Made by a program: the position numbers. This document shows positions 22,801 to 25,800 of a stretch of 64,000 bases of DNA, piece by piece. Origin of the DNA: Escherichia coli O157:H7 (GTDB taxonomy: Bacteria; Pseudomonadota; Gammaproteobacteria; Enterobacterales; Enterobacteriaceae); assembly GCF_013167455.1 (NCBI RefSeq), contig NZ_CP038328.1, one strand, 5' to 3'. Numbering within the stretch: the first letter of the stretch is position 1; each line of letters opens with the position of its first letter.

Positions 22801-25800
22801 TCAGGAAGGGGTTGAGGGAGATTACTGCATTAACAGGTAGATGGTGCTGTCGCCGCGCTGAATGTTCAGTGCCAGCACAGACGGTTTGCTGTCGAGAACT
22901 TTACGCAGTTCAGCGATGTTTTTCACAGCCTGCTGGTTCGCGCCAATAATCACATCACCTTTCTTCAGGCCGATCTGCGCAGCCGGAGTGCCCGTTTTCA
23001 CGTTGTTCACTACCACGCCCTGATCTTTGCCTTTGTTGCTCATCTCAGCGCCTTCAATGCCGTTGAAGATGGAGCTGGAATCAACCTGATTCTGGCTGCT
23101 CTGCTGCAGTTCCAGATTCACGTTGACCTGCTTACCGTCGCGCAGCAAGCCCAGGGTCAGTTTGCTGCCCACCGGCATAGTACCCACTTGAGCACGCAGT
23201 GCGGCAAAGCTGCTGATCGGCTTACCGTTCAGTGAGGTGATCACATCACCCGCTTTAATGCCCGCTTTTGCAGCGGAGGAATTAGGCAGAACCTGGCTTA
23301 CGAAAGCACCGCGCTGGGCGTCAACTTTCATCGCTTTCGCCAGTTCGGAGTTCAGCTCAGTCCCCATAATACCCAGCTCACCGCGTTTCACCTGGCCGTA
23401 TTCCACCATCTGCGAGGTCAGGTTTTTCACCATGTTACTCGGGATAGCAAAACCGATACCGATGTTACCGCCGTCCGGTGCTAGGATCGCGGTGTTGATA
23501 CCGATCAGTTCGCCGTTCAGGTTAACCAGCGCACCACCGGAGTTACCACGGTTGATCGCTGCATCGGTCTGGATGAAGTTTTCGTAGTTTTCGGCATTCA
23601 GGCCGCTACGCCCCAGCGCAGAGACAATCCCGGAAGTTACCGTCTCGCCCAGACCAAACGGGTTACCAATCGCTACGGTGTAATCACCCACGCGCAGTGC
23701 ATCAGAATCCGCCATCTTAATTGCGGTCAGGTTTTTCGGATTCTGGATTTGGATCAGCGCGATATCAGAGCGCGGATCTTTGCCAACCATCTTCGCGTCG
23801 AACTTACGGCCATCGCTCAGTTGAACTTTAATGACCGTCGCGTTATCAACAACGTGGTTGTTGGTGACGACATAGCCTTTATCGGCATCAATGATGACGC
23901 CGGAACCCAGCGCCATGAATTTCTGTTGCTGGCCGCCACCATTACCGCCCTGGCCACCCTGGCAGAACGGAGAGCTCTGGAACGGAGAACCTTCCTGGCA
24001 GAACGGAGAATCATCACCGAAGAACTGCTGGAAATTACGCGGCATACGCGGCGTATTAACGGTTGTGCTACCTTCTACGTTAATGCTGACCACTGAAGGC
24101 ATCACCTTTTCGAGCATCGGTGCAAGGCTTGGCATCTGCTGGGCTGTCGTTGCTGAAGAAGTCTCAGCCGCCGTTGCAGAGAGCGGAGATAACGCCAAAC
24201 CTAAACTCAGAGCCAGTGCACTCAGTGCTAATGTGGTTTTTTTCATGTATTTCAGTCTCGATTAACAGATAACGCAAAATTGCTGTGTTCTTCAGATTCG
24301 TTTTATAGCGCGAAGTTCCGAACTAAAGTTTCTGCAAAAGGTAAAAATTTATTGTTCGTCTTTACAAAAGCCTGGTTATTGTTCTACGGCCATCAGACGT
24401 CGGTATTCATCCCAGGCATAGAGGTCGGTCATACCGCTGATATAATCCTGCAGCAGGCGGCAACGGTAATAATATTCCCATAGCGGAAACTCAGGAGAAT
24501 CTGACGGTAATTTACTGACAGCCTCGACATAGGCCAGCCGATGGCGCGTCGAGAGTTTGTGGAATAAGCGAGATTCAATAGGGGAACGTTTCACCCGTTC
24601 TTTTTCTACCAATTCAGTAAAGTCTGATAATGACAGGCTTAATAAAGGGCGATAAATCTCTAATAATCCGCTAATGACCCGATAGCCCTGCAATTCAAGC
24701 TGCTCGACATCTGGATGGCTAAACACATGTTTTACAGCGACATTTTTATATAGCTTAAGAAGATCGCTGCATTCGCTGGCATCTTCCAATAATGCATGAT
24801 TAAACGTTCCGGCGAAAATCGCAGGCAGATTATCAATAAATCGTTGTGCCGCGTAGGGTACCAGTTTATTTAGGGTGTTTACCCGTAAATACATAAAAAA
24901 CTGATCTTCCGTACTGCGGCTTAAACTATTTGAGCGTGATTTTTCCCAGGCATTTTCAACCACCAGCGAAAAGAGCGAACCTTTCTCATGCTGGCCCCAC
25001 GCCTCGTGCAAATGATGATAAAGCTGCTCAACGGTAAATATTCTTTTCTCTACCGCATCTTCAAGATCTGCCACACAATAGGAGATGTCGTCGGCAGCTT
25101 CCATAATCCACGTTAATGGAAAACGACTGTAAAGCGCCAAATTAAGTTCTTTACGCAACCGGGCAATATAGGCTTCTTCAGAAAGATAATAACCCGGCTT
25201 TTTCATTAAATAGTGATGTGTCTCAGGCGTTTCGCCACGCCACCACGCTGGACGGGTATATTTTAAAATACCGCCAACCTGCGCCCAGGTGAGATTCATC
25301 CGCATCAATGTATGCACCAGACGAATGCCTTGTGCATTCCCCTCAAAATGACATAAGTCCTGACGAATCTTGCGCCGCAGCTCGTTAAGCGGTTCTTCCC
25401 CGTCCCGTAAACGTAGTACCGCCACGCTGCAGCGATCGTCAGTCAGAGGCTGGCTTTCGGCATCTTCCGGGTGCAAACGCTGGCGAAACCAGTCATTTAT
25501 CGCCGCTTCGCCAAAATGACCAAACGGCGGATTGCCGATATCGTGCATCAGGCATGACATCTCAACAATGCTTTCAAAAGGTCCGGTCAGTTCATCCAGG
25601 CCGTATGCTTCCAGCAATTTAAGCTCTTTCAGACGGCTTAAAATTTCTTTGGCGATGTAGCGCCCCACCTGCTGGACTTCCATCGAGTGGGTAAGACGCG
25701 TGCGCACGGCGGCATTGCGCTCCAGTGGAAAAACCTGGGTCTTTTGTTGCAGACGACGAATTGCCGGAGAGTTGATGATACGCCCGCGATCGCTCTCGAA

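What the first reader, a model, noticed from the sequence alone, without database searches (positions are those of the whole stretch)
24247..24375. degP promoter has a near-consensus sigmaE site plus GTAAA elements
GGAACTT-N16-TCTGA on the minus strand (24319-24292) fits the envelope-stress sigma factor consensus. GTAAA pentamers further upstream (around 24340-24365) in both orientations could be CpxR sites, consistent with the known dual RpoE/CpxR control of degP.
Basis: partly seen in the sequence, partly recalled or inferred. Interest (0 to 1): 0.25.

Follow-up and report, generated by a model that had tools for sequence, protein, structure and literature searches.

The report
Known degP stress promoter, E. 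coli

Summary
The window is an E. coli O157:H7-type chromosome. On the minus strand, dgt ends at 24376 and degP starts at 24246. The sigmaE motif occurs once in 64 kb, against 0.01 expected. Two pentamers alone are not significant (P about 0.05-0.08). In 113 Enterobacterales species, however, both pentamers are 98-100% invariant. They sit 25 bp apart and 20-21 bp upstream of a conserved sigmaE-type -35 element. The upstream pentamer begins the curated CpxR site degP1. Published work reports 56-fold sigmaE induction and dual sigmaE/CpxR control of degP. Verdict: observation confirmed, interpretation supported, already known, low interest. Two details remain open. The pentamers converge rather than form the canonical direct repeat, and a TATAAA hexamer sits inside the sigmaE spacer.

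The parts
24313..24319 (-). SigmaE -35 element GGAACTT (about -33 to -27 relative to the inferred start)
   Evidence: Read directly. Unique full-motif match in the window. In 113 species the forms are GGAACTT 66, TGAACTT 36 and GGAACTA 11. It matches the consensus GGAACTT of PMC1312014.
24297..24312 (-). 16-nt spacer. It carries the only differences from K-12 in the 171 bases compared (24400-24230): 24311-24310 is GC here and AG in K-12. It also contains a TATAAA hexamer at 24307-24302.
   Evidence: Alignment to MG1655. The GC allele gives an exact 60-bp match in 4023 of 5424 E. coli genomes and equals the cross-species majority. The spacer is 16 nt in 103 species and 17 nt in 10. TATAAA is in the same register in 48 of 113 species.
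24292..24296 (-). SigmaE -10 element TCTGA
   Evidence: In 113 species the forms are TCTGA 70, TCTTA 26 and TCTCA 9. T, C and T are 98-100% conserved (partly by construction of the anchor).
24286..24286 (-). Inferred transcription start (A), giving a 40-nt leader
   Evidence: Inference from three lines. It lies 5 nt downstream of TCTGA and is a purine, as preferred for sigmaE (PMC1312014). It equals the 40-nt 5' UTR start mapped in S. Typhimurium (PMC5602114). It equals position 1 of the Rfam RF02700 match. It was not mapped here for E. coli.
24351..24365 (-). Proximal CpxR box 'degP1', GTAAAGACGAACAAT (about -79 to -65).
   Evidence: Listed as a known CpxR site (De Wulf 2002) in PMC9600279 Table S1. 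It scores 5.9 bits on a leave-degP-out matrix, rank 179 of 127,972 positions. GTAAA is invariant in 65 non-redundant species, and AATA at 24353-24350 is 95-97% conserved.
24341..24345 (+). Inverted GTAAA pentamer (TTTAC on the degP strand, about -59 to -55), inside an A/T-tract region
   Evidence: 98-100% conserved. The span from the upstream GTAAA is 25 bp in 97 of 113 species, and the gap to the -35 element is 20-21 bp in 108 of 113. Its function as a CpxR half-site, part of an UP element, or both is inferred.
24329..24350 (-). UP-element-like phased A/T tracts: AAATTTT (24350-24344), TTTT (24339-24336) and AAA (24331-24329), near -63, -53 and -43
   Evidence: The tract positions match the alphaCTD subsite centres given in PMC3326320, which lists degP among the 18 promoters that are active in vivo at basal sigmaE levels and were used to model UP effects. 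TT at 24338-24337 is 98% conserved.
24241..24286 (-). HtrA 5'-UTR RNA thermometer (fourU type). UUUU at 24279-24276 pairs with the Shine-Dalgarno GAGA at 24259-24256. The degP ATG is at 24246-24244.
   Evidence: Rfam RF02700, 77 bits against a gathering score of 52, E = 2e-16, full model 1-46. The hairpin is weak: MFE -3.0 kcal/mol, z = +0.94. It was characterised in Salmonella (PMC5602114).
24501..24515 (-). Distal curated CpxR box 'degP2', GTAAATTACCGTCAG, inside the dgt coding sequence
   Evidence: PMC9600279 Table S1. It scores 12.3 bits, rank 9 in the window. It is not conserved across genera: GTAAA is kept in 22 of 72 by crude codon-offset anchoring.
24376..24378 (-). dgt stop codon (TAA), 10 nt upstream of the CpxR box. 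No intrinsic terminator lies between them.
   Evidence: The terminator scan found none in 24000-24700.

Best explanation
This is the degP (htrA) promoter of E. coli. RNA polymerase carrying sigmaE recognises GGAACTT (24319-24313) and TCTGA (24296-24292), 16 nt apart, and starts transcription at or next to A 24286. Envelope stress that frees sigmaE from RseA therefore raises degP transcription. Phosphorylated CpxR binds upstream, over a conserved block at about -83 to -51 (24369-24337). That block contains GTAAA, a central CAATA and an inverted GTAAA. The same stretch carries phased A/T tracts suited to the polymerase alpha C-terminal domains. From this class-I-like position, centred near -67, CpxR increases transcription. 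The 40-nt leader folds into a weak fourU hairpin that masks the ribosome-binding site at low temperature, adding translational heat control. Shown here: the sequence elements, their uniqueness in the window, their deep conservation and the Rfam match. Taken from the literature: sigmaE induction, CpxR dependence and the curated CpxR sites. Inferred: the exact start site in E. coli, the role of the inverted pentamer, and CpxR contact with the polymerase.
For: The genes are identified as dgt and degP. The motif is exact and unique, with 0.01 expected. All 113 Enterobacterales species examined have a [GT]GAACT[TA]-N16/17-TC..[AT] motif upstream of degP. An unconstrained best-match search scored at least 10 of 12 in 108 of 113. 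The upstream block was not pre-selected by the anchor, yet GTAAA is 100% invariant, TTTAC 98-100% and AATA 95-97%, against 0.3-0.4 bits in the flanks. Spacing is fixed. The 60-bp block is identical in 5390 of 5422 E. coli genomes. degP1 and degP2 are curated CpxR sites. degP rises 56-fold on sigmaE overexpression (PMC2731931). It rises 27-fold in cpxA24 and 32-fold with pnlpE, against 6.4-fold in a cpxR deletion with pnlpE (PMC9600279 Table 1). degP-lacZ is described as 'regulated by sigmaE and CpxR' (PMC2215328). The start at 24286 agrees with sigmaE geometry, the Salmonella 40-nt UTR and RF02700 position 1.
Against: On a direct-repeat CpxR matrix, degP1 is only a modest match (5.9 bits, against a training median of 13.9). 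The 15-mer from the inverted pentamer scores below 3. Sequence alone therefore does not prove that CpxR, rather than alphaCTD or another factor, reads the whole block. Overexpressing CpxR alone did not induce degP in one study (PMC2731931). The authors suggested that limiting sigmaE might explain this, which fits a co-activator role but shows that CpxR is not sufficient. The primary footprint and start-site papers (Pogliano 1997, Lipinska 1988, Erickson and Gross 1989, Danese 1995) were not available. The footprint limits and the E. coli start site are therefore not verified here.
Confidence: 0.93

Rival explanations
1. The conserved stretch from about -64 to -38, including the inverted pentamer TTTAC, works mainly as an UP element for the polymerase alpha C-terminal domains. 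Only the upstream GTAAA...CAAT box is a CpxR site, and the second 'GTAAA' is a coincidence of a T-tract.
For: A/T tracts lie at the alphaCTD subsite centres of -63, -53 and -43 (AAATTTT, TTTT, AAA). PMC3326320 includes degP among the 18 promoters active in vivo at basal sigmaE levels that were used to model UP effects. The 15-mer from the inverted pentamer scores below 3 bits on a CpxR matrix.
Against: According to PMC3326320, alphaCTD makes no base-specific contacts. Yet A and C at -56 and -55 are 98% invariant inside the T-run, and the pentamer keeps a fixed 25-bp span from the upstream GTAAA in 97 of 113 species. That pattern fits a base-reading protein better.
Confidence: 0.3
2. CpxR acts partly or mainly on a second, overlapping sigma70-type promoter. 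Its -10 element would be the TATAAA at 24307-24302 inside the sigmaE spacer, with a start near 24293 (47-nt leader), rather than on the sigmaE promoter alone.
For: TATAAA matches TATAAT at 5 of 6 positions and lies 8 nt upstream of 24293. S. Typhimurium has a mapped 47-nt 5' UTR in addition to the 40-nt one (PMC5602114). The hexamer is kept in register in 48 of 113 species, and spacer positions -21 to -16 are 63-88% conserved. From memory, unverified: Danese 1995 reported that Cpx induction of degP depends only partly on E-sigmaE.
Against: There is no -35 match: 0-1 of 6 at spacings of 16-18. The sigma70 scan found nothing on this strand. A/T enrichment in the middle of sigmaE spacers is a general feature (PMC3326320). 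CpxR overexpression without sigmaE induction did not raise degP. From memory, unverified: E. coli htrA is described as having a single sigmaE-dependent promoter.
Confidence: 0.15
3. The motifs are chance matches in an AT-rich intergenic region and have no function.
For: Two GTAAA/TTTAC pentamers in 129 bp occur by chance with P of about 0.05-0.08.
Against: The full sigmaE motif is expected 0.01 times in 64 kb. All elements are conserved with fixed spacing across 113 species, while the flanks are not. Published induction data also argue against chance.
Confidence: 0.01

Closest known systems
E. coli K-12 degP (htrA) promoter degPp, sigmaE-dependent and CpxR-activated
   Same: The sequence is the same locus. 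The 171 bases from 24400 to 24230 are identical to MG1655 except for two adjacent spacer bases. The -35 and -10 elements, the CpxR boxes, the leader and the gene order dgt-degP all match.
   Different: Only the spacer dinucleotide at 24311-24310 differs: GC here, AG in K-12. GC is the majority E. coli allele (4023 of 5424 genomes) and the cross-species majority, so K-12 carries the derived form.
Salmonella enterica htrA control region (htrAp3 sigmaE promoter plus htrA fourU RNA thermometer, Rfam RF02700)
   Same: The sigmaE motif is the same (GGAACTT-N16-TCTGA in L079). The CpxR-type block and the 40-nt leader are the same. The thermometer matches at 78 bits in Salmonella and 77 bits here.
   Different: Salmonella is reported to use two additional upstream starts, giving 47-nt and 215/449-nt leaders (PMC5602114). 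Whether E. coli uses them was not tested. The E. coli hairpin has an A.C where the family consensus has an a-u pair at model pair 7-32.
Canonical CpxR boxes, GTAAA-N5-GTAAA direct repeats (e.g. cpxP, ppiA, yccA, psd)
   Same: A perfect GTAAA pentamer is shared, as is an activating position upstream of the core promoter.
   Different: At degP the second direct-repeat half-site is degenerate (ACAAT). The second perfect pentamer is inverted and starts 20 bp downstream of the first (GTAAA-N15-TTTAC). The matrix score is 5.9 bits, against a median of 13.9 for known sites.

Membership tests
SigmaE (RpoE, ECF) dependent promoters of Enterobacteria | -35 element matching GGAACTT | tested here: met
   Exact GGAACTT at 24319-24313. 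The consensus is taken from PMC1312014 and PMC1804206.
SigmaE (RpoE, ECF) dependent promoters of Enterobacteria | -10 element TCAAA-like, with a 15-19 nt spacer (16 preferred) | tested here: met
   TCTGA matches TCAAA at 3 of 5 positions. TCTGA is the form kept in 70 of 113 species at this promoter. The spacer is 16 nt.
SigmaE (RpoE, ECF) dependent promoters of Enterobacteria | Discriminator of 5-6 nt and a purine start | tested here: inconclusive
   The geometry predicts A 24286 with a 5-nt discriminator. This agrees with the Salmonella 40-nt UTR and RF02700 position 1. No E. coli 5'-end data could be read here.
SigmaE (RpoE, ECF) dependent promoters of Enterobacteria | Transcription induced by sigmaE and dependent on it | not testable with these tools
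   Literature only: degP rises 56-fold on sigmaE overexpression (PMC2731931), and degP belongs to the core sigmaE regulon (PMC1312014).
CpxR regulon promoters | CpxR box GTAAA-N5(4-8)-GTAAA upstream of the promoter | tested here: inconclusive
   One perfect pentamer is followed by a degenerate one (GTAAAGACGAACAAT, 5.9 bits, top 0.14% of window positions). The second perfect pentamer is inverted at N15. The distal site degP2 scores 12.3 bits. The consensus is quoted in PMC3158067.
CpxR regulon promoters | CpxR~P binding and Cpx-dependent expression | not testable with these tools
   Literature only: curated sites from De Wulf 2002; degP up 27-fold in cpxA24 and 32-fold with pnlpE, against 6.4-fold in a cpxR deletion (PMC9600279). 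The Pogliano 1997 footprint was not available.
HtrA 5' UTR thermometer (Rfam RF02700, fourU class) | Score at or above the family gathering threshold over the full model | tested here: met
   77 bits against 52, model positions 1-46 of 46, at 24286-24241.
HtrA 5' UTR thermometer (Rfam RF02700, fourU class) | [quoted passage not shown] | tested here: inconclusive
   The pairing of UUUU (24279-24276) with GAGA (24259-24256) appears in both the Rfam alignment and the MFE fold. Stability is -3.0 kcal/mol and is no better than shuffles (z = +0.94). Melting and reporter tests exist only for Salmonella (PMC5602114).

The most novel reading that the evidence does not exclude
The invariant convergent arrangement GTAAA-N15-TTTAC with a conserved central CAATA sits at a fixed 20-21 bp from the -35 element and is retained from Escherichia to Yersinia, Erwinia and Edwardsiella. 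It could be a distinct composite operator. In that reading, CpxR protomers or dimers bind head-to-head on one DNA face, two helical turns apart, and share the DNA with the alpha C-terminal domains. This differs from the canonical head-to-tail direct-repeat mode assumed for CpxR and other OmpR-family regulators. It might also serve both the sigmaE promoter and an embedded sigma70-type promoter (TATAAA, 24307-24302).
Probability: 0.2. Interest if true: 0.3.

Novelty: already known. Interest (0 to 1): 0.1.

Why it matters
degP encodes the main periplasmic protease and chaperone, and its promoter is a textbook reporter for two envelope-stress pathways. Confirming it here changes nothing in the field. 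It does show that the first-stage reader can recognise a real dual-input promoter from raw sequence. The modest added value has four parts. (1) The CpxR-type block is at least as conserved as the core promoter across the Enterobacterales examined, and its two perfect pentamers converge rather than repeat, which the usual CpxR matrices do not capture. (2) The distal curated site inside dgt is not conserved. (3) The K-12 spacer allele is the derived minority form. (4) The leader carries the HtrA RNA thermometer, so the locus combines two or three layers of control.

Tried and rejected
(1) The sigma70 promoter and intrinsic terminator scan of 24000-24700 found nothing on the degP strand and no dgt terminator. 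(2) I tried to read the primary papers: Pogliano 1997, De Wulf 1999 and 2002, Price and Raivio 2009, and Lipinska 1988. None is held, so the footprint limits and the E. coli start site are not quoted. (3) The supplements of the two Rhodius papers, wanted for a real sigmaE matrix, are not held. I used consensus matching and shuffles instead. (4) The Reg-Seq preprint does not cover degP. (5) A full-text search for 'degP promoter' gave nothing relevant. (6) I tested whether the inverted pentamer scores as a canonical CpxR 15-mer; it does not, scoring below 3 bits. (7) I tested whether degP2 is conserved; it is not, though the anchoring was crude. (8) By eye I considered IHF, NarL, OmpR-like or other factor sites for the block. 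None fitted convincingly, and these were not formally tested. (9) I rejected chance as an explanation.
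Full report
WHAT IS THERE. The window matches E. coli O157:H7 chromosomes at 100% over 24100-24600, and the region is present in 5424 of 5426 complete E. coli genomes. On the minus strand a 505-aa ORF (24376-25893) is dGTPase Dgt (NF003429, 894 bits). A 474-aa ORF (22822-24246) is the serine endoprotease DegP (NF008189, 935 bits). The finding covers the 129-bp dgt-degP intergenic region, 24247-24375.

CHECK OF THE OBSERVATION.
- GGAACTT at 24319-24313;
- a 16-nt spacer;
- TCTGA at 24296-24292;
- GTAAA on the minus strand at 24365-24361;
- GTAAA on the plus strand at 24341-24345 (TTTAC on the degP strand).

The pattern GGAACTT-N15-17-TCTGA occurs once in the 64 kb. Dinucleotide-preserving shuffles give a mean of 0.01 matches.

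The pentamers alone are weak evidence. The window holds 184 GTAAA/TTTAC, so two in 129 bp has P of about 0.05. Eight percent of shuffles of the intergenic region also have two. I built a CpxR matrix from 39 published sites, leaving the degP sites out. On it the 15-mer starting at the upstream pentamer scores 5.9 bits (rank 179 of 127,972 positions; training median 13.9). The 15-mer starting at the inverted pentamer scores below 3.

COMPARATIVE EVIDENCE. I scanned one genome per species for a degenerate DNA pattern encoding the DegP-specific peptide MPSVVSINVEG, so that the promoter itself was not pre-selected. The scan returned 120 loci across Enterobacterales. Of these, 112, plus the window itself, gave 113 sequences with enough upstream DNA and a clean MKK... 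start.
- An unconstrained best-match search for the sigmaE motif scored at least 10 of 12 in 108 of 113.
- With a degenerate regular expression, all 113 have [GT]GAACT[TA]-N16/17-TC..[AT]. The -35 forms are GGAACTT 66, TGAACTT 36 and GGAACTA 11. The -10 forms are TCTGA 70, TCTTA 26 and TCTCA 9. The spacer is 16 nt in 103.
- The upstream pentamers keep fixed geometry. The span from GTAAA to TTTAC is 25 bp in 97 of 113, and the gap from TTTAC to the -35 element is 20-21 bp in 108 of 113.

I then aligned 65 sequences that share less than 85% identity:

| Element (window coordinates) | Conservation |
|---|---|
| GTAAA (24365-24361) | 100% invariant, 2.0 bits per column |
| AATA (24353-24350) | 95-97% |
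| TTTAC (24345-24341) | 98-100% |
| TT (24338-24337) | 98% |
| 12 bases upstream of the block | mean 0.28 bits |
| 16 bases between the block and the -35 element | mean 0.42 bits |

The -35 and -10 values (1.81 and 1.59 bits) are partly fixed by the anchoring expression. The upstream block is not. Within E. coli, the 60 bp covering the block are identical in 5390 of 5422 genomes. The elements are therefore functional, and the conserved unit runs from about 24369 to 24337 (-83 to -51).

START SITE AND LEADER. The published sigmaE model prefers a 16-nt spacer, a 5-6-nt discriminator and a purine start (PMC1312014). That predicts A 24286 and a 40-nt leader.

Two independent lines agree with this. 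First, in S. Typhimurium three htrA starts are mapped, giving 40-nt, 47-nt and 215/449-nt leaders, and the 40-nt form was seen only under stress in the original study (PMC5602114). Second, an Rfam scan gives a full-length match to RF02700, the HtrA 5'-UTR thermometer, at 24286-24241 (77 bits, gathering score 52, E = 2e-16), and model position 1 falls on 24286.

The hairpin pairs UUUU (24279-24276) with the Shine-Dalgarno GAGA (24259-24256). It is weak (-3.0 kcal/mol, z = +0.94 against shuffles). That is expected of a thermometer but is not evidence in itself. E. coli has an A.C where the family consensus has an a-u pair. The family reaches its gathering score in the Escherichia, Salmonella, Citrobacter, Enterobacter and Kluyvera loci. 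It does not in the Klebsiella, Raoultella, Kosakonia, Pluralibacter, Serratia, Yersinia, Erwinia, Pantoea, Edwardsiella or Hafnia loci. The thermometer is therefore younger, or more variable, than the promoter and the CpxR-type block.

LITERATURE.
- degP is a core sigmaE regulon member (PMC1312014).
- It was the second gene shown to be transcribed by RpoE (PMC8103513).
- It rises 56-fold on sigmaE overexpression (PMC2731931).
- degP-lacZ is described as 'regulated by sigmaE and CpxR' (PMC2215328).
- degP rises 27-fold in cpxA24 and 32-fold with NlpE overproduction, against 6.4-fold in a cpxR deletion (PMC9600279 Table 1).
- The same paper's Table S1 lists two known CpxR sites from De Wulf 2002. 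degP1, GTAAAGACGAACAAT, is at 24365-24351. degP2, GTAAATTACCGTCAG, is at 24515-24501 inside dgt.
- degP2 scores well (12.3 bits, rank 9 in the window). By a crude codon-offset comparison it is not conserved between genera: GTAAA is kept in 22 of 72.
- CpxR overexpression alone did not induce degP. The authors suggested that limiting sigmaE might explain this.

The primary footprinting and start-site papers were not available. I do not quote footprint limits.

HOW IT MOST LIKELY WORKS. E-sigmaE initiates at 24286 from an exact -35 element, an optimal spacer and a TCTGA -10 element. CpxR~P bound over about -83 to -51 activates from a class-I-like position. The same stretch carries A/T tracts at the alphaCTD subsite centres of -63, -53 and -43 (AAATTTT, TTTT, AAA). 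PMC3326320 includes degP among the 18 promoters active in vivo at basal sigmaE levels that were used to model UP effects. The leader thermometer adds translational heat control.

The sequence elements, their conservation and the Rfam match are shown here. The regulatory inputs come from the literature. The role of the inverted pentamer is inferred.

OPEN DETAILS.
(a) The two perfect pentamers converge (GTAAA-N15-TTTAC, once in 64 kb). This is not the canonical direct repeat GTAAA-N4-8-GTAAA (PMC3158067). The invariant A and C inside the T-run argue for a base-reading protein rather than alphaCTD alone, because alphaCTD makes no base-specific contacts. Only a footprint or a mutational test can decide.
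(b) A TATAAA hexamer (24307-24302) lies in the sigmaE spacer, 8 nt upstream of the position equivalent to the Salmonella 47-nt leader start (24293). It is kept in register in 48 of 113 species. It has no -35 partner, and the sigma70 scan did not call it. An overlapping activator-dependent sigma70 promoter is possible but unproven in E. coli.
(c) In the 171 bases compared (24400-24230), the only difference from K-12 is GC against AG at 24311-24310 in the spacer. GC is the majority E. coli allele (4023 of 5424) and the cross-species majority.

VERDICT. The feature is the already known degP/htrA promoter. Interest is low. The residual novelty is limited to the non-canonical but deeply conserved pentamer arrangement.

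Noticed in passing
Its first base coincides with the inferred sigmaE start. E. coli has an A.C where the family consensus pairs a-u. The family passes its threshold only in the Escherichia, Salmonella, Citrobacter, Enterobacter and Kluyvera loci among the 15 genera tested.
   Followed up: partly
window 24302-24307 (minus strand): A TATAAA hexamer (5 of 6 matches to the sigma70 -10 consensus) sits inside the sigmaE spacer, 8 nt upstream of the position equivalent to the 47-nt htrA leader start mapped in Salmonella. It is kept in register in 48 of 113 species and has no -35 partner. It could be an overlapping activator-dependent promoter.
   Followed up: partly
window 24310-24311: In the 171 bases compared (24400-24230), the only difference from K-12 MG1655 is a dinucleotide in the sigmaE spacer (GC here, AG in K-12). 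GC is the majority allele (exact 60-bp match in 4023 of 5424 E. coli genomes) and matches the cross-species majority, so the laboratory strain carries the derived form. The effect on promoter strength is unknown.
   Followed up: partly
window 24501-24515 (minus strand, inside dgt): The curated distal CpxR site degP2 (GTAAATTACCGTCAG) scores 12.3 bits, rank 9 in the window. It lies in the dgt coding sequence and, unlike the proximal block, is poorly conserved between genera (GTAAA kept in 22 of 72 by crude anchoring).
   Followed up: partly
window 25969-25983 (plus strand): The top CpxR-matrix hit in the whole window (GTAAATCTATGAAAA, 16.6 bits) lies in the divergent dgt/mtn region, and its ATG is the start of the 232-aa ORF at 25977. 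PMC9600279 lists it as a predicted site for mtn, btuF and dgt. A Reg-Seq preprint reports no CpxR activation at the mtn promoter.
   Followed up: no
window 5624-5638 (minus strand): GTAAAACCTGGTAAG is identical to the published CpxR site listed for skp, so the window also covers the bamA-skp region. A near-copy, GTAAAACCTGGCAAG, lies at 9735-9749.
   Followed up: no
window 24247-24378: No intrinsic terminator lies between the dgt stop codon (24378-24376) and the degP promoter, and the CpxR box begins 10 nt after the stop. Read-through from dgt into degP seems possible. Salmonella is reported to make long htrA leaders that start inside dgt.
   Followed up: no
E. coli genome collection: Three records labelled as plasmids carry the dgt-degP region. 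These are probably mis-assigned or chimeric replicons.
   Followed up: no
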